From a virus (lineage: Duplodnaviria > Heunggongvirae > Uroviricota > Caudoviricetes), in the IMG/VR virus record IMGVR_UViG_2585427784_000004, positions 1 to 17,409 of that record: DNA of 17,409 bases; one strand, written 5' to 3'. The notes under the pieces are model-generated. The model had not been told where the DNA came from, ran no database searches, and worked only from the letters and a program-made list of their open reading frames with translations. The position numbers and the translations under genes are program-made. Position 1 is the stretch's first letter. Every line of letters starts with the position of its first letter. Below are positions 1-17,122 of the stretch, piece after piece.

Positions 1-1053
1 TTACGGGGTAATGCCACCCGCTGCCGCCACTTTGTCGCCACTTGGCAGCGTTGCCAGAGGATTGAAACGGAGCGCCGTTTCCAGATGATCCGGTGCCAGA
101 TGTGCGTAACGCATAGTCATTTTTATATCGTGGTGTCCGAGAATTTTTTGTAAGGCCAGAATGTTTCCACCCGACATCATGAAGTGCGCCGCAAACGTAT
201 GGCGCAGAACGTGTGTGAGTTGACCGCGAGGGAGCACGATAGACGTTTTTTCCATCACGGATAAAAATTGAAAATAGCAGTCTGTGAAGAAATTGAACCC
301 ATCAAGCGCCATGATCTCTTCGTAAAGCTCTTTACTGATAGGGATGCTTCTGTTTTTCTTCCCCTTCGTTCTTACAAAGGTAATTCGGTATTTGGTCACC
401 TGTGAACGAGTAAGATTTACGGCTTCTCGCCAGCGTGCGCCTGTGCTTAAGCATATCTTAACTACCAGTGCCAGAATTGGGTCCTGACGTTTGCAATCAG
501 CCAGTAATTCAACAATCTGCTCATGGGTAAGCCATGCCATCTCTTTTTCTGCGATGGTGAATTTTCGCATGTTCTCCAGTGGGTTCGGATACGACCATTC
601 GCCCAGGCGGGATAGTTCGCTAAAAACACTACTTAGATAGCTTTGCTCCAGGTTAATGGTGACCGGGCTTGCTCCTTTCTTCCATTTCTCGCTGAAGTAG
701 ATCTCACCTGTCAGGCGTTTATCTCGATAGTGGGCAAACATTTTAGAGGTTAGATCAGTTGCAAGGGGATTGCCCAGAGCGTCAACCATCAGCAGCAATT
801 TGTCATAGACATGCTGCCCAGCAGTCAGTGATTTACCATGTAGTTTGAACCATAGCTCAACCACGTCTTTCAGTGTTCGACGATCCACTGATTCACCTAG
901 CCAGGGCTTTGCTTCGGTTTCTTCCATCGTGTGACGCTCAAAAGCCAGTGCTTCGCCTTTGGTGGCGAATTGTTTACGCACACGACGCCCACTACGTCCG
1001 GCGGGGTAACATTCGCAAAGCCATTTTCCTGTGGTGAGTTTTCGTACAGCCAT
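1..1053 (-). CDS. int: Tyrosine integrase, P2-Int family (site-specific recombinase)
   Basis: Minus-strand ORF ending with TAA (reverse complement of 1-3). Likely start is ATG (rc of 1051-1053) preceded by GGAGGG. Translation MAVRKLTTGKWLCECYPAGRSGRRVRKQF... with LSTGARWREA and HVLRHTFAAHFMMSGGNILALQKILGHHDIKMTMRYAHL (catalytic R-H-R-Y region) resembles P2 Int as I recall it. The 26 codons upstream of MAVRK in the ORF track are probably not translated. Confidence 0.9.
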   Translation of the reverse strand: MAVRKLTTGKWLCECYPAGRSGRRVRKQFATKGEALAFERHTMEETEAKPWLGESVDRRTLKDVVELWFKLHGKSLTAGQHVYDKLLLMVDALGNPLATDLTSKMFAHYRDKRLTGEIYFSEKWKKGASPVTINLEQSYLSSVFSELSRLGEWSYPNPLENMRKFTIAEKEMAWLTHEQIVELLADCKRQDPILALVVKICLSTGARWREAVNLTRSQVTKYRITFVRTKGKKNRSIPISKELYEEIMALDGFNFFTDCYFQFLSVMEKTSIVLPRGQLTHVLRHTFAAHFMMSGGNILALQKILGHHDIKMTMRYAHLAPDHLETALRFNPLATLPSGDKVAAAGGITP

Positions 1054-1241
1054 AAAAAATGCCCTCCAATAGAGAGCATTTTTACTGTATGTATAACCAG
1101 TGTCAATGTATGAAATCCTGCGACCATACATCTCACTGAAGCCATAATGAAGTAGGCTATTCTTTTTGCTATGTGATCATGTAACTTTTGCGGTTAACCT
1201 GTGGCTCATTTTTATTTTAGGCGCAGATATAAAAGCAAAAG

Positions 1242-1433
1242 TTATCGTGAGTTTTTAGTACAGATTTTTTTGGATTTACTAATAGTTCCATCATTGCAAA
1301 CGAATTTGCCATCAGAGGTACAGTGAGAAACACCTCCCTTTTTCCCTGAGCAGGGATAATTTCTAGCATAGGTAGCTAGTGGGTTTAATAACAAAGAACA
1401 TGACAAAACCACAAAAAATACCTTACCAAGCAT
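1242..1433 (-). CDS. Small (63 aa) predicted secreted, Cys- and Lys-rich protein of unknown function, sitting between cI and int
   Basis: ATG (rc of 1431-1433) preceded by GGGAGG with about 5 nt spacing. N-terminal hydrophobic signal-like segment [23 protein letters not shown], then [40 protein letters not shown]. Local DNA is AT-rich relative to int and cI. Confidence 0.5.
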
Positions 1434-1448
1434 AATTTCCTCCCGGTA

Positions 1449-2018
1449 CTATTTAACATACTTGACTGTTAAACTTATAATTTTACCAATTATTTCAATG
1501 TCTTCTATCTTACATTCAAAGGCTCTGTTTCCACCCTCGACGAAGATTCTTCCACCGGGTAAACGAGTAATGTCACGGATCGTTATTTCGCCATCAATAC
1601 TTATTACCCATTTACCATCACGTATATCATCAAATTCCTTATCACAAATAAATTCAGAATTATTATCTGTGATTACAAAAAGATTCTTGAATGCCGACGG
1701 TAGAAATTCTCTATCGAAAATATAAAAACCGTCTTCACACAAGGCCCCATCAGATAATACATATTTAGCAACTTCCATAGTATTTGTATTACCTGAAGTT
1801 TGCTTTGAACCATGCCCGGTTGTGAGCCAATTAAGCGAGGTGCCTGTTTCAAGGGCGCACTGGATTACCCATTCTGCTGGGAATGAGTCACGCATGTAGC
1901 GTGTGGCGAGTGTACTTTTAGAGATTCCTAAATGATCGCACAACGCCTGTCGAGTCTTGAATCCATAAGCTTCTACCATGCGCTCTATGGCGCCTCGTCC
2001 GCCTTTCTCCAAATTCAT
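1449..2018 (-). CDS. cI: Phage 186-type CI immunity repressor (N-terminal HTH, C-terminal oligomerisation domain)
   Basis: 189 aa from ATG (rc of 2016-2018) with GGAG upstream. Sequence ...AYGFKTRQALCDHLGISKSTLATRYMR...CALETGTSLNWLTTGHG... fits the Phage_CI_repr family pattern. Divergent from the cox/apl-cII operon. Confidence 0.85.
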   Translation of the reverse strand: MNLEKGGRGAIERMVEAYGFKTRQALCDHLGISKSTLATRYMRDSFPAEWVIQCALETGTSLNWLTTGHGSKQTSGNTNTMEVAKYVLSDGALCEDGFYIFDREFLPSAFKNLFVITDNNSEFICDKEFDDIRDGKWVISIDGEITIRDITRLPGGRIFVEGGNRAFECKIEDIEIIGKIISLTVKYVK

Positions 2019-2042
2019 GGTCACTCCAAGTGAACTTTTATC

Positions 2043-3948: not shown

Positions 3949-4802
3949 GCACCATCCTGAAATGGGCGGGAAATAAAACTGCCATAATGTCCGAACTAAA
4001 AAAACATCTTCCTGCTGGCCCGCGACTGGTTGAACCTTTCGCGGGTTCCTGTGCTGTGATGATGGAGACGGATTATCCCAGCTATCTGGTTGCGGATATT
4101 AATCCTGATTTAATCAACCTCTATAAAAAGGTTGCCGCTGATTGTGAATCGTTTATATCTCGCGCCAGAGTTTTATTTGAGATCGCAAACAGGGAGGTGG
4201 CTTATTACAACATAAGGCAGGAGTTTAATTACTCAACTGAAATTACTGATTTCATGAAAGCGGTATATTTCCTGTATCTCAATCGTCACGGTTACCGTGG
4301 TTTATGTCGCTATAACAAGAGCGGGCATTTCAACATTCCCTACGGTAATTATAAAAATCCATATTTCCCTGAAAAAGAAATTCGCGCATTTGCAGAAAAG
4401 GCCCAGCGAGCAACGTTTATCTGCGCCAGCTTTGATGAAACGCTGGCGATGTTGAAGGCGGGGGATGTGGTGTATTGCGATCCGCCGTATGACGGTACGT
4501 TTTCCGGCTATCACACTGACGGCTTCACTGAAGATGACCAGTATCACCTGGCATCTGTTCTTGAACATCGGTCATCAGAAGGACATCCGGTCATTGTTTC
4601 TAACAGTGACACATCCCTGATCCGTTCGCTGTATCGCAATTTTACTCACCACTACATCAAGGCAAAACGCAGCATCGGTGTGGCAGCTGGCGAGGGTAAA
4701 TCAGCAACAGAAATCATTGCTGTTTCCGGGCCGCGCTGCTGGGTGGGATTTGATTATTCGCGTGGCGTGGATAGTTCTGCCGTGTACGGAGTACGTGCAT
4801 GA
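3945..4802 (+). CDS. dam: DNA adenine (N6) methyltransferase, Dam-like (GATC class presumed)
   Basis: From ATG 3945 (GGAGG upstream): [11 protein letters not shown]... N-terminal motif, catalytic DPPY ([12 protein letters not shown]), and [20 protein letters not shown]. About 285 aa. The 20-codon upstream extension in the ORF track overlaps the TraR gene and is probably untranslated. Confidence 0.85.
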
Positions 4803-7213
4803 GTCATGCCGATATGAACAACTGCTGCGGCTTTAACGAAGCTGCCGCATCGTTCTCATGGAACAGCTCGAAAAAGGCCATTAACCCTTATCTGGACCCG
4901 GTGGAAGTTGCGCCGGTTTCTACGCTTTCAAACCTGATCACTCTGTACGCTGCCGATAACGAGCAGGAACAGCTGCGCCGTGAGGCGCTGAGTGATCAGG
5001 TCTGGGAGCGTTATTTCTTTAATGAATCCCGTGATCCTGTCCAGCGCGAAATGGAACAGGATAAGCTCATTAGTCGGGCAAAGCTGGCGCATGAGCAGCA
5101 GCGTTTTAATCCGGATATGGTCATTCTGGCGGACGTCAACGCCCAGCCTTCCCATATCAGCAAGCCGCTGATGCAACGTATTGAATACTTCAGCAGCCTG
5201 GGCAGGCCAAAGGCTTATTCCCGCTATTTACGTGAGACGATTAAGCCATGTCTGGAACGACTGGAGCATGTACGCGACAGTCAGCTATCTGCATCTTTTC
5301 GCTTTATGGCAAGCCATGAAGGGCTGGACGGCCTGCTGATCCTGCCTGAAATGAGTCAGGATCAGGTGAAACGCCTGTCCACCCTGGTAGCTGCGCATAT
5401 GAGTATGTGCCTTGATGCCGCTTGTGGCGATTTGTATGCCACCGATGACGTTAAGCCAGAAGAAATCCGCAATACATGGGAAAGGGTGGCAGCGGAAACC
5501 CTGCGTCTGGATGTCATCCCGCCTGCGTTTGAGCAACTCCGTCGGAAAAGAAACCGCCGTAAACCCGTGCCCTATGAACTCATTCCGGGTTCGCTGGCGC
5601 GTATGTTGTGCGCCGACTGGTGGTATCGGAAATTATGGAAGATGCGTTGCGAATGGCGGGAAGAGCAGTTGCGTGCTGTCTGCCTTGTCAGCAAAAAAGC
5701 ATCTCCCTATGTCAGCTATGAAGCCGTGTTGCATAAACGTGAGCAGCGCCGTAAGTCGCTGGAGTTTTTCCGTTCTCATGAACTGGTGAACGAAGACGGC
5801 GACACGCTAGACATGGAGGATGTGGTAAACGCCAGCAGCAGCAACCCTGCGCATCGCCGCAATGAGATGATGGCCTGTGTTAAAGGTCTGGAGCTTATCG
5901 CGGAAATGCGCGGTGACTGCGCCGTTTTCTACACCATCACCTGTCCGTCACGTTTCCATTCCACGCTAAATAACGGCAGGCCCAACCCGACCTGGACAAA
6001 TGCGACGGTAAGACAAAGCAGCGATTATCTGGTCGGTATGTTTGCTGCATTTCGTAAGGCGATGCACAAAGCCGGGTTGCGCTGGTATGGCGTGCGGGTG
6101 GCTGAGCCGCATCACGACGGCACAGTTCACTGGCACCTGTTGTGTTTCATGCGCAAAAAAGACCGCCGCGCCATTACAGCATTGTTGCGTAAGTTTGCTA
6201 TCCGTGAAGACCGCGAGGAGCTGGGCAATAACACGGGGCCGCGCTTTAAGTCTGAGCTGATTAACCCGCGCAAAGGAACGCCGACAAGCTACATAGCGAA
6301 ATACATCAGTAAGAACATTGACGGGCGTGGTCTGGCTGGCGAGATCAGCAAGGAAACGGGTAAATCTCTGCGTGATAACGCTGAATACGTGAATGCCTGG
6401 GCGTCTTTGCATCGTGTTCAGCAATTCCGCTTCTTTGGCATTCCGGGGCGTCAGGCTTACCGTGAACTGCGATTGCTGGCTGGTCAGGCGGTAAGGCAAA
6501 AGGGGGACAAAAAAGCAGGTGCGCCGGTACTGGATAACCCGCGCCTTGATGCCATCCTGGCTGCTGCTGATGCTGGTTGTTTTGCCACCTACATCATGAA
6601 GCAGGGCGGCGTACTGGTTCCCCGTAAATATCACCTCATCAGAACCGCTTATGAAATCAACGAAGAGCCGACCGCCTATGGCGATCACGGCATTCGTATT
6701 TATGGCATCTGGTCACCCATTGCAGAGGGCAAGATCTGCACTCATGCAGTGAAGTGGAAAATGGTTCGTAAAGCCGTTGACGTTCAGGAGGCGGCAGCCG
6801 ACCAGGGCGCTTGCGCCCCTTGGACTCGTGGCAATAACTGTCCCCTTGCTGAAAATTTGAACCAACAAGGGAAAGACAAATCAGCTGATGGGGACTCCAT
6901 AACGGATATTACCCGTATGAATGACAAGGAGTTGCACGATTACCTGCACAGTATGAGCAAAAAAGAGCGCCGGGAACTGGCTGCAAGGTTACGCCAGGTG
7001 AAACCGAAACGGCGTAAAGACTACAAACAGCGAATTACAGACCATCAGCGACAGCAGCTCGTCTATGAACTGAAGTCCAGGGGATTTGATGGCAGCGAGA
7101 AAGAAGTCGATTTGCTCCTTCGCGGCGGCAGTATTCCGTCAGGAGCAGGCCTGCGTATCTTCTATCGGAACCAGCGTCTGAAGGAAGATGATAAGTGGCG
7201 GAACCTGTATTAA
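4799..7213 (+). CDS. Replication initiation endonuclease gpA (rolling-circle HUH nickase, P2/186 A family)
   Basis: 804-aa ORF. HUH-type motif TVHWHLLCF (H-W-H at 6128-6136) and paired catalytic tyrosines YIAKYISK (Tyr codons 6290-6292 and 6302-6304), as in P2 gpA. ATG overlaps the dam stop. Confidence 0.9.
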
Positions 7214-7307
7214 TTACGCGGGTTAACAATTCGTGCTCTTAATAATACCAGGCATATCAGGCCGATGAACGTAAAAAAACGTTTTACATCAGTAAGATTA
7301 TTATATA

Positions 7308-7323
7308 CTGTAAATATAAACAG
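7308..7323 (+). promoter_or_regulatory. LexA (SOS) box CTGTAAATATAAACAG overlapping the promoter of the tum/dinI-like operon
   Basis: Exact CTGT-N8-ACAG palindrome with an AT-rich centre, 43 bp upstream of the first ORF. -10-like TATACT at 7304-7309 overlaps its 5' edge. Analogous to the LexA-controlled p95-tum arrangement of phage 186. Confidence 0.6.
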
Positions 7324-7365
7324 TGGTTATGCATACAGTATTGTTTTGGTGTCATAGGAGGAAAG

Positions 7366-7554
7366 ATGCAGGACTATTTTTTGGAGTCTTTGAAGCTCCA
7401 GCGCATTGATTTTTTTCTTAAGCTTGTAGCGGCTAGTGAGTGTAGTGATGAAGAGAAGGGGCTGGCTCTGCAGTGGGTTTCTGAACTGACAGATGAACTC
7501 ATGGCAAAAATCAGAAGCCACGAATACAACCGCTCAATGGATGTCATCAGCTGA
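7366..7554 (+). CDS. Small protein (62 aa) in the SOS operon; possibly the N-terminal part of a Tum-like antirepressor
   Basis: ATG 7366 preceded by AGGAGG (7356-7361). Directly downstream of the LexA box. Ends 10 nt before the DinI-like ORF, whose reading frame is already open from 7493. Confidence 0.5.
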   Translation: MQDYFLESLKLQRIDFFLKLVAASECSDEEKGLALQWVSELTDELMAKIRSHEYNRSMDVIS

Positions 7555-7564
7555 GGTGACTTTT

Positions 7565-7798
7565 ATGCGCATTGAAATAATGATCGATAAAGAGCAGAAG
7601 ATTAGCCAGTCTACCCTGGACGCCCTTGAATCCGAGCTTTACCGCAATCTGCGCCCCCTGTATCCCAAAACGGTAATTCGCATTCGCAAAGGTAGCTCTA
7701 ACGGTGTGGAACTAACCGGACTGCAACTGGATGAAGAAAGAAAACAAGTGATGAAAATTATGCAGAAGGTGTGGGAGGACGACAGCTGGCTGCATTAA
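7565..7798 (+). CDS. DinI-family protein (SOS-regulated RecA modulator / Tum C-terminal-like domain)
   Basis: 77 aa from ATG 7565 (GAGGTG 5 nt upstream). MRIEIMIDKEQKISQSTLDALESELYRNL...RKQVMKIMQKVWEDDSWLH aligns by eye with E. coli DinI (MRIEVTIAK...DALAGELSRR...KQRISEILQETWESADDW). Confidence 0.8.
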   Translation: MRIEIMIDKEQKISQSTLDALESELYRNLRPLYPKTVIRIRKGSSNGVELTGLQLDEERKQVMKIMQKVWEDDSWLH

Positions 7799-7806
7799 GA
7801 AACGTT

Positions 7807-7840
7807 GCCCCCAGGAGGATTCATTCTGATGGGGGCTAGT
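7807..7840 (+). terminator. Weak candidate hairpin after the DinI-like gene
   Basis: GCCCCCA (7807-7813) pairs with TGGGGGC (7830-7836) around a 16-nt loop, followed by TAGTTTGG. The loop is long and the U tract poor. Confidence 0.25.
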
Positions 7841-8204
7841 TTGGGTAACGAGTGAAACGAGGCGTAAGGTGGGCGGCCATTTTGATAAGTGATTGTACGA
7901 TTTGTGTTGTGAGTTCAACGGGTCGATGCAACGCTATCCTTAATCAAGGGCACGTTGCTCATACCCATCGATGCAATGAAAATCCATACTCATGGGGAAG
8001 ACCAGAATGTCCCTGCCTTTTTCATTTTGTTCAGCACATGCACTATGGCCATTGCCTTCCCAAGCTAGCTATCGTAATCACTCAGCGTCAGTAAACTACT
8101 GAAAAATTGTTTTACCTTGTATATCAATAATGCCAAATCATACCCAAAAAATAGAAAATAATTAGATCGACAGGCAGAAGGCAATGTGAATAATCTTAAA
8201 AACC

Positions 8205-8234
8205 TTGACTGCCAGTGAGGTTTGGTTCTATAAA
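8205..8234 (+). promoter_or_regulatory. Candidate sigma70 promoter for darT-darG: TTGACT - 18 nt - TATAAA
   Basis: -35 TTGACT at 8205-8210 and -10 TATAAA at 8229-8234, about 30 nt upstream of the darT RBS AAAGGATGAG (8251-8260). Confidence 0.4.
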
Positions 8235-8265
8235 TAGACTTACGACTTTGAAAGGATGAGTTGAA

Positions 8266-8847
8266 ATGAGCGAAAGGAAAAGAATTGAAGATCAGTATCT
8301 TCTCTATCATTTAACATGTATGGATAATCTACCTAGTATTTTAGACACAGGATTAAGATCTCGTGCATCAGTAAAAGGTGAGTTTGTTGATGTGGCCGAC
8401 GGTGAAATAATAACAGGACGCGAAGCATTAAATTTGCAAACAATGGTTCCTTTTCATTTCTTTACTAAGAATCCATTTGATGGAAGAGTCCTGAAAGATC
8501 ATAAGGAAAAATCATTTTGTATTATTTCGGTTTGTCGGGCATTTGCCAAAGAAAATGGTTGGAAAGTTATCCCTAAACATCCATTATCCACCAGTTCTGT
8601 TATAGACCTCTTAGATTATGAACAAGGAATGGCCCAAATTGACTGGGAGCTTATGAATATAAGGGATTATAAAAATGCAGAATGCAAATCTGTATGTATG
8701 GCTGAGTGTTTATCAAGTGTAACGGTCGAGCCGAAAAATTTCCATTGCATCTTTGTCAAAAATGATAACGAAAAAAAATATGTTGAAAGGTTGATAAAAC
8801 AACAAGGATTAAGTATATTGATAACGATCAACACTTATATGTTCTAA
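8266..8847 (+). CDS. darT: DarT-like DNA ADP-ribosyltransferase toxin (DUF4433-type)
   Basis: 193 aa. N-terminal LLYHLTCMDNLPSILDTGL matches the DarT hallmark (..YH.T...NLP.IL..GL) as I remember it from Thermus DarT, and a C-terminal ...CMAECLSSV... Glu-containing motif sits where the catalytic Glu would be. Followed 4 nt later by a macrodomain gene. AT-rich codon usage. Confidence 0.75.
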   Translation: MSERKRIEDQYLLYHLTCMDNLPSILDTGLRSRASVKGEFVDVADGEIITGREALNLQTMVPFHFFTKNPFDGRVLKDHKEKSFCIISVCRAFAKENGWKVIPKHPLSTSSVIDLLDYEQGMAQIDWELMNIRDYKNAECKSVCMAECLSSVTVEPKNFHCIFVKNDNEKKYVERLIKQQGLSILITINTYMF

Positions 8848-8851
8848 TTCT

Positions 8852-9823
8852 ATGATTAAGTATGCAAGCGGAAATCTTCTAAACTCTACATCGCAAGCTC
8901 TTGTGAATGCTGTAAACTGCCAAGGAGTCATGGGAAAGGGTATTGCTTTGGCTTTTAAAGAAACTTTTCCCTATAATTTCGAAGTTTATAAGAGAGCATG
9001 CGCCACTGGTACAATGAAAATTGGACAGGTTTTAATTGTAGAGGAAAAGGGAAAAATAATTGTAAACTTTCCCACTAAAGATAGTTGGAGAAAAAAATCA
9101 ACATATGATTTTATCTCGCAAGGCCTTGAATCTTTAGCAAAAATTATAGACGAAAAAAAAATTACATCAATATCAATACCACCTTTAGGCTGTGGTAATG
9201 GGGGCCTCGATTGGAATAAGGTTGAGGCTCTTATTTTAAAAACTTTTCAAAATTTAGATAATGTTGATGTGGTAATTTATCCGCCTGCAACTAACAATCA
9301 ACTTTCAAAAAATAAAAATGTTATTAATGCTAAGCATCTTTTGGTTCACTACGCCTATGGAAAATTAAAAGTTAAGCAAAAATATTCCCTTTATACAGTT
9401 TTTTATATTTGCGAATGTATTGAGAAAGCAAATCTTTTTTTATTCGATTTTAAACATGGTCGGCCATACTCTTCTGAGTTAGAAAATATTATGAAGGATA
9501 TAGCAAACCTTAAAGTTGAGTTGCAAGGAGATTTTGATGCTTTTATTGAAGATTATATTAATACTCATCAATCCAAAGAGTTACAAACCGAGTTTGGTAA
9601 ACTAATCTCAACTTTAAATCCAAGTATAAGTTTGCTCAATGCTCTTAAAAATAAGATTGATTATACAGATAGCGTACATGTGATTACGAGAATTGCTAAA
9701 GAAAAAGATCATGGCTTGCATATTGACAATTTCAAAGAATATGAAAATATTGTGCAGCATTTAATTAAAAATGGATTGGTAATCGAAGATATTTTTAACG
9801 AACTAAAAATAAAGGGAAGTTAG
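8852..9823 (+). CDS. darG: DarG-like antitoxin: N-terminal macrodomain (ADP-ribosyl hydrolase) plus C-terminal domain
   Basis: 323 aa. The first ~150 aa carry macrodomain signatures (NAVNCQGVMGKGIALAF..., ...ISIPPLGCGNGGLDWNKV...). The C-terminal ~170 aa is helical and K/E-rich, consistent with a DarT-binding domain. Gene order toxin then antitoxin. Confidence 0.8.
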   Translation: MIKYASGNLLNSTSQALVNAVNCQGVMGKGIALAFKETFPYNFEVYKRACATGTMKIGQVLIVEEKGKIIVNFPTKDSWRKKSTYDFISQGLESLAKIIDEKKITSISIPPLGCGNGGLDWNKVEALILKTFQNLDNVDVVIYPPATNNQLSKNKNVINAKHLLVHYAYGKLKVKQKYSLYTVFYICECIEKANLFLFDFKHGRPYSSELENIMKDIANLKVELQGDFDAFIEDYINTHQSKELQTEFGKLISTLNPSISLLNALKNKIDYTDSVHVITRIAKEKDHGLHIDNFKEYENIVQHLIKNGLVIEDIFNELKIKGS

Positions 9824-10375
9824 TAGCGCTATTTTCAATTTTTTTGCTGAAATTGCGCATGCACACTCTCACGCATTATAGATGCGGCGTTAATCCCGCC
9901 AGGAGTGTTGTTTAATAAATTGAACTATTTCTGCATTGAAGGATCAACTTACGCATTCGCTGACAACGCAGGCACTCTCCTGGCTAAGCAGAAATTCAGA
10001 GTAACCAACTGGCACTTTTACAACAATTTTATTATCAGTTGCGGCTCCATGACTTTCTGGTGGGATAACAAAGCAATTAAGGCGTGGTATTGTAAGTATC
10101 CCGCATAATCATGCTAGTAACATTTGTCCCCCATGTAACCTAATTAAGGCAACTTCCGCTCTTCGCTCACAGTGAACCTCCATGTTTGTAAACCCGTATA
10201 TTTCGTTTTTTAAGTGGTCATTCAGATACGGATTTTCACTTCTCTTGGCTGTGCATGACTATGCTGCATGAAATTGCATGATCGTTTGAGGATCGTTTTT
10301 GCTGAGGCCCCCCAGAACTGGCGGGCTTTCGCTTATGTCATGCAGGTGCATGAAAATCACTGCATAAAGCGGGCA

Positions 10376-10394
10376 GGCGTGGCGGGGATACGAG
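10376..10394. other. cos-like motif (possible remnant of the cohesive-end site)
   Basis: GGCGTGGCGGGGA (10376-10388) is identical to the first 13 nt of the 186 cohesive end as I recall it (GGCGTGGCGGGGAAAGCAT; P2 GGCGAGGCGGGGAAAGCAC), then diverges. Upstream are five TGCATGA-like repeats (10252-10370) that could be terminase-recognition elements. Rests on recalled sequences only. Confidence 0.25.
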
Positions 10395-10477
10395 CGCGCG
10401 CTGGAGGGATAAATGGAATTGAAAATGTACCTTCTTAGAGATAACCTTCGCTAAAACTTTATTACTAAGGAGTGATA

Positions 10478-12220
10478 ATGAGTACCTGGAACCAAGCCTA
10501 TTCTGCAAGAGAAGATTTGAAATCGTATGGTGATAATGGACTGGCTTTGTTTGCGTTAGCATTACATTTCAGAATTGATGACATTGATAGTGTCGCAGCA
10601 GAGTCCATTACCGATGGACATGACGATAAGAAATGTGACCTTGTGTATATTAATGAAGAAGAAGAATTTGCTGTACTTGCTCAATGCTATTTCTCAAGCA
10701 AAGATAGACAGGAAGCTCCAGCAAATAAAGCGAGTGATCTTAATATTGCTTTAGCATGGCTTCTGCAAAGAGATTTGCATGATGTACCCGATAGAATAAA
10801 ATCTTCTGCTCAACAGATACGGACATCAATCAAACAAGGGAAAATTAAAACTCTGTACGTTTGGTATGTTCATAACTTACCATCTTCAACAAATGTGGCT
10901 CAAGAGCTAATTACGGTTCAGCAGACAGCAACAACTATTTTAAAACATGATTTTGAAGATGCTAAAATACAAGTGCATGCAATGGAAGTAGGCACTGAAA
11001 AGTTGACGGAATGGTATAGTGAATCACTATCACCAATACTGGTTGATGAGATTTTCAATATTAAAGTCAGTGATGGTGGCTATGAAATAAAAGGAGATAA
11101 TTGGAATGCATTCTGTACTACCATTCAGGGAAGAGATTTAGCTAGAGCGTACAAAAAGCATAAATTAAAAATATTTTCAGCAAATGTTAGAGACTACCTT
11201 GGATCAAGGTCATCTGATTCAAATATCAATAATGGTATCCGTAACAGTGCGGAAAATTCAGCATCAGAATTTTGGGCATACAATAATGGCGTAACTGTTT
11301 TGGTTCATGAATATAAATTCAATGAAGCATCAAAGAATCTTGAAATCAGAGGGATGTCAATAGTTAATGGAGCACAGACAACAGGTGCTTTAGGAACGCT
11401 GCCACGATTACCTCCAGAATCAGTTAAAGTCCAAGCTAGATTTATAAAAGTCAAAGATGCGGATGCTGATCTAATTCAGAATATAATTCAGTATAATAAC
11501 AGTCAGAATAAAGTTGAAGCATCTGATTTCAGAAGCACAGACAAAATTCAAAAACGACTTAAAAATGAATTTGCTTCTATTCCTGATGCTGAATATGATG
11601 GAGGAAGACGAGGAGGTGCTGAAAGTGTCATTCGTCGAAAAACTAATCTACTGCCTTCTTATACTGTTGGTCAAGCTTTGATGAGTTTCCATGGAGAGCC
11701 GACGGTAGCTTATAATCAGCGATCTGCAATTTGGACTAATGACTCTCATTATTCTAAGATTTTTAATGACAGTACAAAAGCTTCACATATTGTTTGTGCG
11801 TATTCTCTCATGCGGTGTATTGAGAACAAGAAAATAGCTTTGGCAAAGAAAGATACTCTTTCAAAAAATGATAGCGCTCAATTGGGATATCTCAGGCATC
11901 GTGGTTCAATACCTTTATTGTGCTCGGCTATTGCCGAATGTTTGGAAAACTTTTTGGGCCGTCCCGTTCCTAATTTATTTAGAGTTTCGTTTGGAAGTAC
12001 GGTTTCTCCTTCTCAGGCTGAAAGTATTTGGGAGCCAATTGTAGATGTGTGTCTGGCTTTAAGTAATCAGTTGCTGCCTGCACTGGTTGAAGGAGGGTTG
12101 AAAAGTCCTACAAAAGTTAAAGATTGTATATCAAATTTTTCACAGCTTATTACTGCAACGGCCCAAATGAACCAGCCTGTATATGAGGCATTTGAGAAAA
12201 AAATCAAATCCGCATTCTAA
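10478..12220 (+). CDS. 580-aa orphan cargo protein; candidate single-gene abortive-infection/defence protein, tentatively AIPR-like
   Basis: ATG 10478 with TAAGGAG upstream. Long, clean ORF with AT-rich codon usage. Internal motifs FWAYNNGVTVLVHEY and MSIVNGAQTTGALG resemble what I recall of AIPR / DGQHR-type Abi proteins; the N-terminal segment is acidic (DGHDDKKCDLVYINEEEEFAVLAQ). Followed by a strong terminator. Family assignment is unverified. Confidence 0.8.
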   Translation: MSTWNQAYSAREDLKSYGDNGLALFALALHFRIDDIDSVAAESITDGHDDKKCDLVYINEEEEFAVLAQCYFSSKDRQEAPANKASDLNIALAWLLQRDLHDVPDRIKSSAQQIRTSIKQGKIKTLYVWYVHNLPSSTNVAQELITVQQTATTILKHDFEDAKIQVHAMEVGTEKLTEWYSESLSPILVDEIFNIKVSDGGYEIKGDNWNAFCTTIQGRDLARAYKKHKLKIFSANVRDYLGSRSSDSNINNGIRNSAENSASEFWAYNNGVTVLVHEYKFNEASKNLEIRGMSIVNGAQTTGALGTLPRLPPESVKVQARFIKVKDADADLIQNIIQYNNSQNKVEASDFRSTDKIQKRLKNEFASIPDAEYDGGRRGGAESVIRRKTNLLPSYTVGQALMSFHGEPTVAYNQRSAIWTNDSHYSKIFNDSTKASHIVCAYSLMRCIENKKIALAKKDTLSKNDSAQLGYLRHRGSIPLLCSAIAECLENFLGRPVPNLFRVSFGSTVSPSQAESIWEPIVDVCLALSNQLLPALVEGGLKSPTKVKDCISNFSQLITATAQMNQPVYEAFEKKIKSAF

Positions 12221-12224
12221 CTAA

Positions 12225-12256
12225 AAGAAGGCCTTGTAAGAGGCCTTCTTGATATT
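12225..12256. terminator. Rho-independent terminator, probably bidirectional, between the 580-aa gene and the convergent portal fragment
   Basis: Perfect 10-bp stem AAGAAGGCCT (12225-12234) / AGGCCTTCTT (12241-12250), 6-nt loop, then GATATTTTA. An A run lies on the opposite side. Confidence 0.6.
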
Positions 12257-12281
12257 TTACTGATCAGCGAACATATTGTCG

Positions 12282-12662
12282 TCATAATGAGTATGTCGCA
12301 AAACGGATAATTTCATCTTTCAACCATCTATTTAGTTCCTGTAGCCGTTTCTGTAGCGGCATCAATTCGTTACGAACAAAAACGCAACTGGCTTTCTCTA
12401 CATCCCCAAACCCTCCAACATTATTAGGCATAATCCCCATCATCTGAGGCGGCACACGGTGTGCCGCCATCATGTCATCGCGGCTGACATTTTTGATATT
12501 CAGAAACTCATCCTTCGCCGCGACTTCTGATATCTGGCGGTATTGCCCGTCTGCGCACAGCAGGCCGGGGGCCAGATTGCTGTGGGACAGGTCGATGTCC
12601 ACCTTATCGGCTTTGTTGCGCCCACGGTTGAACAGCGCACCGGACCAGAACGGATACGACGC
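12282..12662 (-). pseudogene. C-terminal fragment (~125 codons) of the phage portal gene (gpQ-like); N-terminal two thirds deleted
   Basis: Minus-strand frame open through 12282-12746. Protein-like C-terminal sequence ...RVPPQMMGIMPNNVGGFGDVEKASCVFVRNELMPLQKRLQELNRWLKDEIIRFATYSL. The first 28 codons of the tracked ORF are antisense to gpU and not credible. Orientation and position next to cos match P2 Q. Portal identity is from memory. Confidence 0.5.
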
Positions 12663-13148
12663 ATGATGATGGTGCTGGGATTGTACGTGTTTATGCTGCG
12701 CACCGTGCCGTATCAGGAGCTGCAGTATCAACGCAGCTGGCGACATGCGGCAAACAGCCGGGTAAACCGACGTCCGTCCACGCAGTTTCTGGGACCGGAC
12801 AACGACATGCTGACGCTTTCCGGTGTTCTTATGCCGGAGATAACAGGTGGCAGGCTGTCGTTGCTGGCACTGGAGCAGATGGCAGAACAGGGGAAAGCAT
12901 GGCCCCTGATTGAAGGCAGCGGCACGATTTATGGCATGTATGTGATTGAGGGACTGAATCAGACTAAAACGGAGTTTTTCCGCGACGGTATGCCGCGCCG
13001 GATTGAGTTCACCCTGTCGCTCAAAAGGGTGGATGAATCATTGTCCGATATGTTCGGTGATCTCAGTGCGCAACTGAATAATCTGCAGGACACGGCAACG
13101 TCTGCCTTAAGCGATATCAGTAAAACGGTGGGAGGGCTGCTGTCGTGA
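12663..13148 (+). CDS. Tail protein gpU (P2 U family)
   Basis: About 160 aa from the ATG triplet at 12663-12671. Sequence MVLGLYVFMLRTVPYQ...RSWRHAANSRVNRRPSTQFLGPDNDMLTLSGVLMPEITGG...EGSGTIYGMYVIEG... Stop overlaps the gpD start (GTGA). The 40 upstream codons in the ORF track are read-through over the portal fragment. Confidence 0.8.
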   Translation: MMMVLGLYVFMLRTVPYQELQYQRSWRHAANSRVNRRPSTQFLGPDNDMLTLSGVLMPEITGGRLSLLALEQMAEQGKAWPLIEGSGTIYGMYVIEGLNQTKTEFFRDGMPRRIEFTLSLKRVDESLSDMFGDLSAQLNNLQDTATSALSDISKTVGGLLS

Positions 13149-14245
13149 ATTTCAGCTCTGAACTGCTTAACAAAGGCAACAAAACTCCCGCATTCAGCAT
13201 CAGTATTGAGGGCAGGGATATCACCACTGTGCTGGATAACCGCCTGATGAGTCTGACGCTGACGGACAATCGGGGCTTTGAAGCGGACCAGCTTGATCTG
13301 GAGCTGGACGACGCCGATGGAAAAATAGCGCTGCCGCGCCGTGGTGCGGTCATTACGCTGGCGCTGGGCTGGAAGGGGCAGCCGCTTTTCCCGAAAGGGG
13401 CATTCACGGTGGACGAGATTGAACACACTGGCGCACCGGACCGCCTGACTATCCGGGCGCGAAGTGCTGATTTTCGGGAAACGCTGAATCCCCGCCGTGA
13501 AAAGTCGTGGCACAAGACCACTGTCGGGGAAGTGGTGAAGGAAATAGCTGTGCGGCACAAACTGAAGATGGCACTGGGTAAAGACCTGTCAGATAAACCC
13601 GTGGAACATATAGACCAGACCAATGAGAGTGACGGCAGTTTTCTGATGCGGCTGGCGCGCCAGTACGGTGCTATTGCGTCGGTGAAAAATGGCAATCTGT
13701 TATTCATCCGGCAGGGACAGGGTAAAAGCGCCAGCGGTAAACCACTACCGGTGATCACTATCACACGTAAGGACGGCGACAGTCACCGCTTTACCCTGGC
13801 AGATCGCGGAGCCTATACGGGCGTAATTGCCAGTTGGTTGCATACCCGCGAACCCGCGAAGAAAGAAAGCACCACGGTGAAGCGTAAGCGCAGGACTAAG
13901 AAGCAGAAGAAAGAGCCGGAAGCGAAGCAGGGCGATTACCTGGTGGGTACGGATGAAAACGTGCTGGTACTTAATCGCACCTATGCCAACCGGAGCAACG
14001 CCGAACGGGCGGCAAAAATGCAGTGGGAACGCCTGCAACGCGGCGTTGCGTCATTCTCGCTACAACTGGCGGAAGGGCGGGCAGATCTCTACACGGAAAT
14101 GCCAGTGAAAGTCAGTGGCTTTAAACAGCTGATAGATGATGCGGAATGGACCATTACGACTCTGACACATACCGTCAGCCCGGATAACGGTTTTACGACC
14201 AGTCTGGAGCTTGAAGTGAGGATTGATGATTTCGAAATGGAATGA
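13145..14245 (+). CDS. Tail protein gpD (P2 late gene D family)
   Basis: 366-aa ORF directly after U and before ogr, the P2/186 order F-E-T-U-D-ogr. Carries a basic insert KKESTTVKRKRRTKKQKKEPEAKQ. Start is GTG at 13145, overlapping the U stop. Confidence 0.85.
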   Translation: MNFSSELLNKGNKTPAFSISIEGRDITTVLDNRLMSLTLTDNRGFEADQLDLELDDADGKIALPRRGAVITLALGWKGQPLFPKGAFTVDEIEHTGAPDRLTIRARSADFRETLNPRREKSWHKTTVGEVVKEIAVRHKLKMALGKDLSDKPVEHIDQTNESDGSFLMRLARQYGAIASVKNGNLLFIRQGQGKSASGKPLPVITITRKDGDSHRFTLADRGAYTGVIASWLHTREPAKKESTTVKRKRRTKKQKKEPEAKQGDYLVGTDENVLVLNRTYANRSNAERAAKMQWERLQRGVASFSLQLAEGRADLYTEMPVKVSGFKQLIDDAEWTITTLTHTVSPDNGFTTSLELEVRIDDFEME

Positions 14246-14270
14246 TTCTTCGCAATGGAGAACTTTTAAG

Positions 14271-14298
14271 TTTGCAAAATGGAATAATGCGGTATCAT
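14271..14298 (+). promoter_or_regulatory. Candidate ogr promoter: TTTGCA - 16 nt - TATCAT
   Basis: -35-like TTTGCA at 14271-14276 and -10-like TATCAT at 14293-14298, upstream of the ogr RBS GGGGAG (14320-14325). Confidence 0.3.
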
Positions 14299-14335
14299 TA
14301 TTGTGAATTTAGCAAAAATGGGGAGAACTCGAAAA

Positions 14336-14554
14336 ATGATGATTTGCCCACTGTGTGGAAGTGCCGCCCATACTCGCAGCAGTTTTCAGGTATCTTCATT
14401 GACCAAAGAGCGTTACAACCAGTGCCAGAACATTAACTGCAGCCATACTTTTGTTACCCATGAAACTTTTGTTCGTTCGATTGCAACGCCAAAAGAGTCA
14501 AATCCGGTTCAGCCGCATCCAATGAAATCAGGACAGGTAGCGCTCTCTCTTTGA
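14336..14554 (+). CDS. ogr: Ogr/Delta-type zinc-finger late-gene transcription activator
   Basis: 72 aa from ATG 14336: MMICPLCGSAAHTRSS...ERYNQCQNINCSHTF... matches P2 Ogr (MFHCPLCQHAAHARTS...ERYHQCQNVNCSATF) including the C2C2 finger and length. The upstream GTG at 14303 in the ORF track is unlikely. Confidence 0.85.
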   Translation: MMICPLCGSAAHTRSSFQVSSLTKERYNQCQNINCSHTFVTHETFVRSIATPKESNPVQPHPMKSGQVALSL

Positions 14555-14634
14555 CGCTGCCGCCATTTTGTCGCCATCGTTAAAAAACAGTGCTTCTAAC
14601 ATCATGATCTTAAACAGCTTAAATTTCAGGCAAC

Positions 14635-14677
14635 AAAAAACCCATCAACCTTGAACCGAAATGGCGGGGTTGATGGG
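14635..14677 (-). terminator. Rho-independent terminator downstream of ybjL
   Basis: 10-bp perfect inverted repeat CCCATCAACC (14641-14650) / GGTTGATGGG (14668-14677) with a 17-nt loop. On the minus strand it is followed by TTTTTTGTTG (plus-strand A run 14635-14640). Confidence 0.5.
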
Positions 14678-14789
14678 CTCCACAAAATGGGGACATCAAA
14701 GAAAAGCAGTGGCACTAATTAAGACTGATGCCCTGCGGAAAAGTTCTGCGGTTGTGCAAAAAAATTTCATTTTCAGGGCAACTTCAGTT

Positions 14790-16475: not shown

Positions 16476-16744
16476 GGAGGCTAACTTCTTGTTTACTAGT
16501 AAGCTGTTGAAAGAAATGGTAATTTACGATAATGTTTTTTACCAGAATTCAGGGCGCAGATTCATTCAGCGCACCTAAACGATAGTAAAGTAACAATATA
16601 TTTTACTAGTGTAATCACATTAGGTATCAACGGCTATATGAATTGCGTTGGCCTATATTAGCATGGAATGCGAAGCGGCTTTATCTTACTGAACGCCACA
16701 CTGGCGAAAAATGTGTTCGATAGACGCAGTGTCAGGAGGAACGA

Positions 16745-17122
16745 GTGAAACATAAACAACGTTGGGCGGGGGCAATCTGCTGTTTTGTCCTCTTCATTGT
16801 GGTGTGCCTTTTTCTGGCGACGCACATGAAAGGCGCTTTTCGGGCTGCCGGGCATCCTGAAATCGGCTTGCTATTTTTCATTCTTCCTGGAGCAGTCGCC
16901 AGCTTCTTTTCACAGCGTAGAGAAGTCCTGAAACCTCTGTTTGGCGCAATGCTGGCGGCACCCTGTTCGATGCTCATTATGCGGCTGTTTTTTTCACCGA
17001 CGCGCTCATTCTGGCAAGAGCTGGCATGGTTATTAAGTGCGGTGTTCTGGTGTGCGCTGGGGGCACTGTGTTTCTTATTTATCAGTAGTTTGTTTAAACC
17101 ACAGCACAGAAAAAATCAGTAA
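16745..17122 (+). CDS. ybjM: Inner-membrane protein YbjM
   Basis: 125 aa, GTG start with AGGAGG 9 nt upstream. MKHKQRWAGAICCFVLFIVVCLFLATHMKG..., hydrophobic. Position between ybjL and grxA. Confidence 0.85.
   Translation: MKHKQRWAGAICCFVLFIVVCLFLATHMKGAFRAAGHPEIGLLFFILPGAVASFFSQRREVLKPLFGAMLAAPCSMLIMRLFFSPTRSFWQELAWLLSAVFWCALGALCFLFISSLFKPQHRKNQ

What the first reader, a model, noticed from the sequence alone, without database searches (positions are those of the whole stretch)
1242..1433. Small secreted Cys/Lys-rich peptide encoded inside the lysogenic cI-int operon
Between the repressor and integrase genes on the same strand sits a 63-codon ORF with a strong GGGAGG RBS, an N-terminal signal-like hydrophobic segment, and a mature part rich in Cys (4) and Lys. 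Its DNA is visibly AT-rich compared with the neighbours. Genes at this position are expressed in the lysogen, so this looks like a moron: a lysogenic-conversion or superinfection-exclusion factor exported to the envelope or periplasm.
Basis: seen in the sequence. Interest (0 to 1): 0.5.

Follow-up and report, generated by a model that had tools for sequence, protein, structure and literature searches.

The report
Exported YdcA-family mini-protein in prophage
The small ORF is a real, strongly conserved gene for a 40-residue basic, four-cysteine periplasmic protein of the catalogued but uncharacterised YdcA family, carried as optional cargo just after the repressor gene of a defective 186-like prophage; its function is untested, but relatives fused to secreted nucleases suggest it binds DNA or another polyanion outside the cytoplasm.

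Summary
ORF 1242-1433 (-) has 63 codons, a GGGAGG site 5 nt before the ATG, and starts 15 nt after the cI stop.

It is a YdcA-family protein: NCBIfam NF007463 scores 114.6 bits against a cutoff of 93, and phrog_6000 and Pfam PF27300 also match. It is 57% identical to E. coli K-12 YdcA. The core is under strong purifying selection (dN/dS 0.02-0.13, synonymous sites saturated).

Signal peptides differ between homologues, but all 29 aligned homologues have Ala at -1 of the predicted cleavage site. The mature 40-mer has 4 conserved Cys and a net charge of +7.

Phage 186 has no gene between cI and int. Related prophages carry nothing, a YdcA-like gene, or defence genes (PDC-S20 KAP NTPase, PD-Lambda-1) there. 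YdcA-like genes follow cI in E. coli, Yersinia and Haemophilus P2-like phages. They also occur in tail modules, small plasmids and chromosomes.

Function is unknown. New leads:
- The domain is fused to three unrelated secreted nuclease folds.
- It sits next to a secreted SNase gene in one phage contig.
- It resembles the lobes of Legionella T4SS protein Dis2.

The entity is already catalogued. Interest is moderate because the function now looks testable.

The parts
1242..1433 (-). YdcA-family gene: 63-aa precursor plus stop codon (1242-1244)
   Evidence: ORF list. NCBIfam NF007463 scores 114.6 bits against a cutoff of 93. phrog_6000 E 3e-34. The precomputed Pfam family of the identical protein P0001 is PF27300, YdcA. 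dN/dS is 0.02-0.13.
1365..1433 (-). Signal peptide coding part (residues 1-23, [23 protein letters not shown]); predicted signal peptidase I cleavage after A23
   Evidence: In alignment A1 the N-terminal sequences diverge completely, but all are hydrophobic and end in small-x-Ala, with A23 invariant. AF2 predicts a helix at residues 3-15. SignalP could not be run.
1245..1364 (-). Mature 40-aa peptide [40 protein letters not shown] (4 Cys, net +7, pI 9.7)
   Evidence: Translation. In the mature-only alignment A2 (20 sequences) all four Cys are invariant; in A1 C38 and C46 are invariant and C28 and C58 nearly so. pLDDT is 90-92 over the core.
1439..1444 (-). Shine-Dalgarno GGGAGG, 5 nt upstream of the ATG, inside the 15-nt gap after the cI stop
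   Evidence: Read directly from the sequence.
1449..2024 (-). 186-type CI repressor gene, directly upstream in the same operon
   Evidence: Pfam Phage_CI_repr E 3e-33 and Phage_CI_C E 3e-27.
1054..1241 (-). 188-nt AT-rich spacer between the YdcA-like stop and the int start. No terminator-like site on this strand. Weak promoter-like site at 1106-1078. Positions about 1113-1142 align to the segment that holds the last bases of the KAP NTPase gene and the spacer after it in sister prophages
   Evidence: Promoter and terminator scan. Homology breakpoints from blastn (with gene coordinates).
1..1053 (-). P2/186-type tyrosine integrase gene, downstream in the same operon
   Evidence: Pfam Int_N and Phage_integrase. 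The MAVRKL start matches the Yersinia-type homologue in L151.

Best explanation
**Shown**
- The ORF encodes a YdcA-family pre-protein under strong purifying selection.
- It is optional cargo in the variable cI-int slot of a 186-like, now defective, prophage. Its start lies 15 nt after the cI stop and no terminator-like site follows before int.

**Inferred, high confidence**
- It is co-transcribed with cI from the lysogenic promoter.
- It is exported by Sec, cleaved after A23, and folds in the periplasm into a 40-residue, strongly basic mini-domain held by two disulfides.

**Inferred, moderate to low confidence**
- The domain binds a conserved polyanionic ligand outside the cytoplasm, most likely nucleic acid. 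The same domain has been recruited as the N-terminal module of secreted nucleases of three unrelated folds, and it also occurs as a separate gene next to a secreted SNase gene.
- In the lysogen the free domain would therefore act on DNA that is in or crossing the periplasm (incoming phage, plasmid or transforming DNA). It would act alone or with a resident periplasmic nuclease. That would give the prophage-bearing cell a protective accessory function in a slot that otherwise holds anti-phage systems.
For: **Family membership and selection**
-.

**Export**
- Divergent signal peptides with invariant A23 and an ultra-conserved mature part.
- K-12 YdcA is described as having a signal sequence and being predicted periplasmic (PMC11340327).

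**Operon setting**
- Sequence; no terminator-like site on the minus strand.
- In the 186 record the lysogenic operon is pL-cI-int-orf69-terminator, with no gene between cI and int.

**Variable cargo slot**
-.
- The other cargo matches PADLOC PDC-S20 (E 1e-171) and PD-Lambda-1 (E 3e-120).

**Recurrence behind cI**
- Seen in Haemophilus HP1/HP2-type, Yersinia-type and a second E. coli lineage, although the CI proteins are only 25-39% identical.

**Nuclease link**
- Of the 149 best family representatives, the Pfam domains fused to the YdcA domain are Endonuclease_NS x4, SNase x2 and PLDc_2 x1. All other fused families together give 6 matches.
- In L118 a signal-peptide-bearing SNase gene ends 27 nt before a stand-alone YdcA-like gene.

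**Charge**
- The domain core is positively charged in 131 of 139 cases, mean +3.
Against: - No binding or phenotype data exist. The DNA-binding step rests on domain fusion and neighbourhood only.
- The nuclease fusions are 7 of 149 representatives. Most members are stand-alone.
- The only related solved structure, Dis2, contacts proteins near the outer membrane, not DNA (PMC8486379, PMC12716638).
- Injected phage DNA is usually shielded while it crosses the periplasm.
- The family also sits in core chromosomes, for example K-12 ydcA, where the only reported phenotype is sensitivity to 3-hydroxypropionate (PMC7642389).
- The gene is disrupted by an IS in one genome, and some database variants lack one or two of the conserved Cys, so it is dispensable.
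- PADLOC gives no hit.
Confidence: 0.4

Rival explanations
1. Outer-membrane-proximal protein adaptor. Like the lobes of Legionella Dis2, the mini-domain docks onto periplasmic faces of lipoprotein or OmpA-like complexes. In nuclease fusions it would anchor the enzyme to the envelope. In the lysogen it would modify an envelope machine (a receptor, or a conjugation or secretion apparatus) and so exclude incoming elements.
For: - Dis2 (7muc_AN) is the top PDB hit by Foldseek: probability 0.97, 38% identity over 39 columns.
- It is also the top hit by profile search: E 6.4e-5 with the full profile and 0.067 with the mature part only.
- hhalign of A2 against a Dis2 orthologue fragment gives E 1.2e-4, and that fragment carries a precomputed PF27300 hit.
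- Tandem two- and three-repeat family members exist, matching the two lobes of Dis2.
- Dis2 lies near the outer membrane, has five disulfides and contacts DotK, DotC and DotD (PMC8486379; PMC12716638).
Against: - Residues most conserved in YdcA proteins (GKKGG, SxSKK) are not kept in Dis2.
- No T4SS genes lie near this locus.
- Anchoring does not explain why nucleases in particular are the recurrent fusion partners.
Confidence: 0.25
2. General envelope or stress-physiology factor. The prophage carries an extra copy of a host-type periplasmic protein (a paralogue of ydcA). It improves tolerance to acid, organic acids or envelope stress and has no role in phage-phage conflict.
For: - It is 57% identical to chromosomal K-12 YdcA.
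- In E. coli W, deletion of ydcA severely reduced growth in 300 mM 3-hydroxypropionate, and the authors cite acid induction through YdcI (PMC7642389).
- Chromosomal copies lie among housekeeping genes in Moraxella-like and Herbaspirillum genomes.
- The extreme sequence conservation is unlike arms-race proteins.
Against: - The single reported phenotype has no mechanism behind it.
- It does not explain the nuclease fusions, or the repeated capture by phages at different genome positions and by tiny plasmids.
Confidence: 0.2
3. Secreted cationic antimicrobial or bacteriocin-like peptide used against competitors.
For: It is small, cationic (+7) and has four Cys. A YdcA family protein is mentioned in a genomic study of an antagonistic Pseudomonas strain (the paper was not read in detail).
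Against: - It has a Sec signal peptide only, which delivers it to the periplasm.
- No export, immunity or modification genes are adjacent.
- It occurs as a core chromosomal gene and as a domain of larger proteins.
Confidence: 0.03
4. Lipoprotein, anchored through Cys12 by way of the lipobox-like VLSC.
For: Residues 9-12 (V-L-S-C) loosely fit a lipobox (sequence). One Yersinia homologue is labelled 'Lipoprotein' by a source.
Against: - Cys12 is not conserved. Most homologues have no Cys in the signal peptide, or have residues at -1 that do not fit a lipobox.
- The Cys lies too close to the N-terminus, after only about 7 hydrophobic residues.
- The conserved feature is the Ala at -1 of the downstream site.
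Confidence: 0.03

Closest known systems
E. coli K-12 YdcA (b1419) and the YdcA family (Pfam PF27300; NCBIfam NF007462, NF007463, NF007464; PHROG 6000)
   Same: - Same size class and the same signal peptide plus PCSGxKGG(V/I)SHC...FVCNDGxISxSKKxC core.
- 57% identity overall.
- The window protein passes the curated cutoff of NF007463.
- RefSeq already labels identical copies 'YdcA family protein'.
   Different: - It is prophage-borne and placed in the cI operon, not at the chromosomal cybB-rydC-ydcA-hokB locus.
- It has a different signal peptide.
- No member of the family has a demonstrated function.
Legionella pneumophila Dis2 (Lpg0823), an outer-membrane-cap component of the Dot/Icm T4SS (PDB 7MUC, 7MUD)
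   Same: - It has a signal peptide and small Cys-rich lobes with the pattern C-x-K/R-x-GG-(I/V)...G-x-x-V-C-N-(D/N)-G-x-x-S.
- It is the best PDB match by Foldseek and by profile search.
- All Cys are in disulfides, and it lies in the periplasm near the outer membrane.
   Different: - Dis2 has two lobes and ten Cys, and it lacks the GKKGG and SxSKK signatures.
- It is part of a T4SS, and no T4SS is present here.
- Its own function is unknown and it is dispensable (PMC12716638).
Cargo of P2/186-like prophage hotspots (old, tin and fun in P2; PD-Lambda-1 and PDC-S20 KAP NTPase in the cI-int slot)
   Same: - It occupies a position where related prophages carry alternative accessory genes expressed in the lysogen.
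- Hotspots of this kind are documented (PMC9122126; PMC13586616).
   Different: - It matches no known defence model.
- It is extracytoplasmic and tiny.
- It is highly conserved rather than diversified.
- It is often found together with a defence gene rather than in place of one: cI-ydcA-KAP-int.
Envelope-located superinfection-exclusion proteins of temperate phages (for example Cor, Llp, SieA, Sim; from general knowledge)
   Same: It is prophage-encoded, presumably expressed in the lysogen, and targeted to the envelope.
   Different: No sequence or profile similarity was detected. It is not a lipoprotein or a membrane protein. No exclusion phenotype is known.

Membership tests
YdcA family (PF27300 / NCBIfam NF007463) | Profile score above the curated cutoff | tested here: met
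   NF007463 scores 114.6 bits against a cutoff of 93, E 1.3e-33. The identical protein P0001 carries a precomputed PF27300 hit. The local Pfam copy lacks this model.
YdcA family (PF27300 / NCBIfam NF007463) | Conserved four-Cys core PCSGxKGGxSHC...F(V/I)CxDGxxSxSKxxC in a protein of about 55-65 aa | tested here: met
   Alignments A1 and A2: in the mature-only alignment A2 all four Cys (C28, C38, C46, C58) are invariant, with K32, D48, G49, S52, S54 and K55; in A1 C28 and C58 are nearly invariant.
YdcA family (PF27300 / NCBIfam NF007463) | N-terminal cleavable Sec signal peptide | tested here: inconclusive
   The n/h/c regions and the T-Y-A site fit the -3/-1 rule, and A23 is invariant across divergent signal peptides. 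No SignalP run or experiment was possible.
Moron (autonomous accessory gene of a prophage) | Present in some and absent from other, otherwise related, phage genomes | tested here: met
   Phage 186 has cI abutting int. E2348/69, vB_EcoM-813R9 and 4LV2017 carry other genes in the slot. A Yersinia phage with the same int lacks it.
Moron (autonomous accessory gene of a prophage) | Own promoter and terminator flanking the gene | tested here: not met
   Only 15 nt separate the cI stop from the ATG. No promoter-like site lies upstream and no terminator-like site lies downstream on the minus strand. It is embedded in the cI-int operon.
Moron (autonomous accessory gene of a prophage) | Nucleotide composition different from the flanking phage genes | tested here: inconclusive
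   GC is 0.36 against 0.485 for int and 0.459 for the window. The adjacent 3' half of cI is 0.33.
Known anti-phage defence or superinfection-exclusion proteins | Homology to a described defence or exclusion protein | tested here: not met
   PADLOC gives 0 families. The PHROG family has unknown function. BFVD fold search finds nothing significant.
Known anti-phage defence or superinfection-exclusion proteins | Reduces plating or DNA entry of other phages | not testable with these tools
   This needs efficiency-of-plating and DNA-injection assays.
Bacterial lipoprotein | Conserved lipobox with invariant Cys at +1 | tested here: not met
   Cys12 and its surroundings are not conserved in homologues.
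Dis2-like T4SS outer-membrane-cap protein | Significant sequence and structure similarity to the Dis2 lobes | tested here: inconclusive
   [not shown]
Dis2-like T4SS outer-membrane-cap protein | Two-lobe architecture and association with a type IVB secretion system | tested here: not met
   The window protein has a single domain. The window holds prophage and host genes only, with no T4SS genes.

The most novel reading that the evidence does not exclude
The YdcA domain is a previously unrecognised extracytoplasmic nucleic-acid-binding mini-domain stabilised by disulfides. P2-, 186- and HP1-like prophages, other phages and small plasmids express the free domain in the periplasm to capture DNA entering the cell (phage, conjugative or transforming DNA) or to hand it to nucleases. 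That would make it a new kind of envelope-level barrier to foreign DNA. It would also give a function to E. coli ydcA and to the lobes of Legionella Dis2.
Probability: 0.2. Interest if true: 0.7.

Novelty: already known. Interest (0 to 1): 0.4.

Why it matters
- The gene itself is catalogued. RefSeq labels identical copies 'hypothetical protein' or 'YdcA family protein', and the 1.1-kb cI-ORF-int segment is largely present (at least 80% covered) in 592 of 5426 complete E. coli genomes. Strains B/BL21 and ATCC 8739 carry full-length copies at 94-96% identity.
- The family has no known function, yet it is one of the most conserved small secreted proteins moved around by phages and plasmids. Its core is more conserved than the repressor and integrase beside it.
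- The links to nucleases and to Dis2 found here turn an uncharacterised gene family into a testable hypothesis.
- If that hypothesis is right, it would add a periplasmic layer to prophage-conferred protection, and it would annotate hundreds of protein clusters.

Tried and rejected
- **Local Pfam scan of the ORF.** The only hit was a chance match to GULLO2-like_3rd (E 0.076). The local copy lacks PF27300.
- **Defence and fold searches.**
  - PADLOC gave nothing.
  - BFVD found nothing significant.
  - The afdb50 library was unavailable.
- **Search for a conserved partner gene** next to YdcA-like genes in HP2, Moraxella, Acinetobacter and Psychrobacter elements. There was no common homologue. 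The only signal was a weak similarity between two plasmid membrane proteins, E 2e-8. Many neighbours are envelope proteins.
- **Literature on YdcA.** The papers read say the function is unknown, that it is predicted to be periplasmic, and report one 3-hydroxypropionate phenotype. The 'Conjugal transfer protein' label in UniRef has no traceable basis.
- **First IMG/VR scan.** It returned only near-identical copies and had to be repeated with the HP2 homologue.
- **Readings considered and rejected.**
  - The lipoprotein reading fails on conservation.
  - The chance-ORF reading fails on dN/dS.
  - Metal binding by Cys4/His was judged less likely than disulfides. The compartment is oxidising, and Dis2 shows all its Cys in disulfides.
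- **Recalled resemblance to DUF3761 and SPKK-like motifs.** This was not tested and is not used as evidence.

Full report
**1. Observation**

The minus strand reads cI stop TAG (1451-1449), TACC, GGGAGG (1444-1439), AAATT, ATG (1433-1431). The strong RBS is real, and only 15 nt separate it from the cI stop.

Upstream is a 186-type CI repressor gene (1449-2024; PF07022 E 3e-33, PF16452 E 3e-27). Downstream is a P2/186-type integrase gene (ORF 1-1131, likely start MAVRKL at 1053). On the other strand follow a Cox/Apl-like gene and a CII (CP76) gene.

The precursor has MLGK, a 12-residue hydrophobic stretch and NPLATYA. The remaining 40 residues hold 4 Cys, 7 Lys and 2 Arg, with pI 9.7 and net charge +7.

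The AT-richness is real against int (0.36 versus 0.485) and against the window mean (0.459). It is not peculiar to the ORF: the spacer 1054-1241 (0.36) and the 3' half of cI (0.33) are just as AT-rich.

**2. A real gene of a catalogued family**

- The protein passes the curated cutoff of NCBIfam NF007463 (114.6 bits against 93, E 1.3e-33).
- It matches phrog_6000 (E 3e-34, unknown function).
- The identical database protein carries Pfam PF27300, 'YdcA'. The local Pfam copy lacks that model, which is why one search found nothing.
- It is 57% identical to E. coli K-12 YdcA (b1419), which lies between rydC and hokB.
- RefSeq labels identical copies 'hypothetical protein' or, in newer annotations, 'YdcA family protein'.

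In a 29-sequence alignment the N-terminal 20-30 residues are unrelated in sequence, but all are hydrophobic and end in small-x-Ala, with A23 invariant. The part after A23 is nearly invariant: [34 protein letters not shown], with four conserved Cys.

I compared 27 core codons with copies from another E. coli prophage, HP2, Moraxella, Acinetobacter and Psychrobacter elements. Synonymous sites were saturated or nearly so, while dN was 0.02-0.22, giving dN/dS of 0.02-0.13 where it could be computed. The refutation criterion 'not conserved as an ORF' therefore fails. This is a protein-coding gene under strong purifying selection.

**3. Export**

SignalP could not be run. Three lines of evidence point to Sec export and signal peptidase I cleavage after A23:
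- the n/h/c layout, with Pro at -6, Thr at -3 and Ala at -1;
- the family-wide pattern of a freely varying signal peptide with a fixed cleavage-site Ala and a fixed mature part;
- the published description of K-12 YdcA as having a signal sequence and being predicted periplasmic (PMC11340327).

A lipoprotein reading (V-L-S-C at residues 9-12) is rejected because that Cys is not conserved. The AF2 model built on the alignment has mean pLDDT 79.5, rising to 90-92 over the core, with two short strands.

**4. Genomic setting**

No terminator-like site lies on the minus strand between the ORF and int. In the 186 record the lysogenic operon is annotated as pL-cI-int-orf69-terminator, with the cI stop abutting the int start and nothing between them. 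The window therefore carries about 400 extra bases in that operon: the ORF plus a 188-nt spacer.

The slot is variable among prophages inserted at the same chromosomal site, beside rcdA:

| Element | Content of the cI-int slot |
|---|---|
| E2348/69 | cI, a second CI-like gene, KAP NTPase, int (no YdcA gene) |
| VG38-53E1 and the L085 type | cI, YdcA-like, KAP NTPase, int |
| Phage vB_EcoM-813R9 | cI, 558-aa ATPase, int |
| Klebsiella phage 4LV2017 | 350-aa hypothetical protein |
| Strain 730V1 | the ORF is cut by ISKpn26 |

The KAP NTPase matches PADLOC PDC-S20 (E 1e-171) and the ATPase matches PD-Lambda-1 (E 3e-120). The YdcA-like protein matches nothing in PADLOC. [quoted passage not shown]

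Homology breakpoints lie at about 1111-1142 and about 1250-1265. Positions about 1113-1142 align to the segment that holds the last bases of the KAP NTPase gene and the spacer after it in the sister prophages, so a KAP gene may have been lost here.

The cI-ORF-int segment is at least 80% covered in 592 of 5426 complete E. coli genomes. Strains B/BL21 and ATCC 8739 carry full-length copies at 94-96% identity.

The prophage in the window is defective. After gpA (4799-7213) come:
- a DinI-like gene;
- DarT/DarG (8266-9823);
- an AIPR/AbiU-like gene (10472-12220);
- gpU, gpD and an Ogr-like gene;
- host ybjL-like and ybjM genes.

What survives is the lysogeny module plus accessory and defence cargo.

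**5. Distribution of the family**

A profile search of 1.84 billion representatives finds 453 clusters at E <= 1e-3 and 261 at 1e-10.

YdcA-like genes directly follow cI in several P2-like lineages:
- Haemophilus HP1/HP2-type phages. In HP2 the ORF is unannotated, and its ATG overlaps the last base of the cI gene, as both are annotated or listed.
- A Yersinia-type lineage with the order cI, YdcA-like, int.
- Two E. coli lineages.

In these lineages the CI proteins are only 25-39% identical and Int about 48% identical, while the YdcA core is 70-90% identical.

Among 80 diverse IMG/VR loci:
- 20 have cI within 400 nt upstream;
- 37 are Acinetobacter-type, with a conserved DUF4236 gene immediately downstream;
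- 1 has only a distant match to a Moraxella phage (Mcat17) gene;
- 22 lie in other contexts. Their neighbours include other repressors, a recombination-associated exonuclease, late transcriptional activators and tail genes.

The family is also found in the structural module of Moraxella phages and after the TipJ tail gene of an Acinetobacter phage-plasmid. It occurs on mobilisable or small plasmids of 3.9-5.4 kb and on Rhizobium plasmids. It also sits among housekeeping genes on chromosomes. It is therefore a widely shared cargo gene, not a phage-specific function.

**6. Functional leads**

(a) Domain fusions. Some family members carry a signal peptide and an N-terminal YdcA domain followed by another domain. 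Among the 149 best representatives, the fused Pfam domains are:
- Endonuclease_NS x4, SNase x2 and PLDc_2 x1, which are three unrelated nuclease folds;
- DUF4124 x2, PBCV_basic_adap x2, VasL x1 and TerY_C x1.

Six of the 12 representatives of 180 aa or more are among these nuclease fusions.

(b) Gene neighbourhood. In viral contig L118 a secreted SNase gene (signal peptide present, PF00565 E 2e-19) ends 27 nt before a stand-alone YdcA-like gene. This is the split version of the fusion.

(c) Charge. The core is basic in 131 of 139 domains, mean +3. The most conserved non-Cys residues form Gly/Lys/Ser-rich loops (GKKGG, SxSKK).

(d) Solved structures. The best PDB match is Legionella Dis2 (Lpg0823, 7MUC/7MUD):
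- Foldseek probability 0.97, 38% identity over 39 columns;
- profile E 6.4e-5, or 0.067 with the signal peptide removed;
- hhalign E 1.2e-4 at probability 55% against a Dis2 orthologue fragment that itself carries a precomputed PF27300 hit;

**7. Mechanism**

Confidence differs by step.

- Secure: it is a real, exported YdcA-family mini-protein carried as optional cargo in the cI operon.
- Likely (inferred from operon structure and from Dis2): it is co-expressed with cI in the lysogen and holds two disulfides.
- Hypothesis (about 0.35-0.4): the domain binds a conserved polyanion, most likely nucleic acid, outside the cytoplasm.

Independent recruitment by three nuclease folds, together with the split-gene arrangement, is most simply explained by substrate binding. 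The extreme conservation fits an invariant ligand better than a fast-evolving phage target. In a lysogen this would act on DNA in or crossing the periplasm.

The main rival (about 0.25) is an outer-membrane-proximal protein adaptor or anchor, as in Dis2. A host-physiology or stress role (about 0.2) rests on the chromosomal paralogue and its 3-hydroxypropionate phenotype (PMC7642389). The antimicrobial-peptide and lipoprotein readings are unlikely.

**8. Comparison, novelty and score**

Membership of the YdcA family is met on profile score and core motif. As a 'moron', it meets the presence/absence criterion but lacks its own promoter and terminator. It fails every homology test against known defence or exclusion proteins.

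The entity is already catalogued, so novelty is 'already known'. Three points appear to be new here:
- its recurrent placement behind cI across P2-like lineages;
- the nuclease fusions and the nuclease neighbour;

Interest is moderate (0.4). The gene is ordinary as an annotation, but it is a tractable route to the function of a widespread, highly conserved gene family.

Noticed in passing
window 4799-17122: The prophage is a deletion remnant. gpA is followed by accessory genes, then directly by gpU (12543-13148), gpD (13145-14245) and an Ogr-like zinc-finger ORF (14303-14554). Host ybjL-like permease (14790-16475, minus strand) and ybjM (16745-17122) come next. No head genes and most tail genes are missing.
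   Followed up: partly
window 8266-9823 and 10472-12220: Two defence-type cargoes lie in the known gpA-proximal hotspot. DarT (PADLOC E 1e-36) and DarG (E 3e-80) form a toxin-antitoxin defence pair. A 582-aa AIPR/AbiU-like protein follows (Pfam AIPR E 2e-34, PADLOC AbiU E 1e-34). A DinI-like gene lies at 7493-7798.
   Followed up: partly
window 1113-1264: Homology to sister prophages breaks at about 1111-1142 and about 1250-1265. Positions about 1113-1142 align to the segment holding the last bases of the KAP NTPase gene and the spacer after it in those prophages. A KAP gene may therefore once have sat between the YdcA-like gene and int and been deleted. Positions about 1143-1249 have no match in the loci compared.
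   Followed up: partly
L001 2944-3126 (Haemophilus phage HP2, NC_003315 complement about 2486-2668): A 60-aa YdcA-like ORF is not annotated in the HP2 or S2 records. Its ATG overlaps the last base of the annotated cI gene. A secreted 254-aa orf1 and then int follow it.
   Followed up: yes
L127-L181 (Acinetobacter-type IMG/VR loci); L096 4926-5434: In 37 of 80 diverse viral loci the YdcA-like gene is followed, 110-171 nt after the core start, by a conserved DUF4236 gene (basic and repeat-rich). This suggests a two-gene cassette of unknown function.
   Followed up: partly
L118 2084-2752: A secreted staphylococcal-nuclease homologue (156 aa, with a signal peptide) ends 27 nt before a stand-alone YdcA-like gene. 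This mirrors the SNase fusions P0110 and P0219.
   Followed up: yes
[not shown]
   Followed up: partly
proteins P0056-P0062, P0108, P0109 and others: Long forms (about 100-150 aa; P0056 is from Herbaspirillum) add a C-terminal CxC...C-x-GP(K/R)GG-x-(Y/F)-C...G-x-K-x-Y module. It matches the PBCV-specific basic adaptor domain weakly (best E 1e-4).
   Followed up: partly
L097 3068-3991 (E. coli E2348/69) and L003 2903-3844 (Klebsiella phage 4LV2017): Some relatives carry a longer, roughly 310-aa CI-like protein. In E2348/69 it lies in the slot as a second CI-like gene between the true cI and a KAP NTPase. In 4LV2017 it is the only annotated CI.
   Followed up: no
window 1449-1736: The 3' half of cI (the C-terminal domain) is as AT-rich (GC 0.33) as the YdcA-like gene, while its 5' half is 0.47. 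The low-GC tract therefore spans about 1054-1736 and may mark a mosaic joint inside cI.
   Followed up: no
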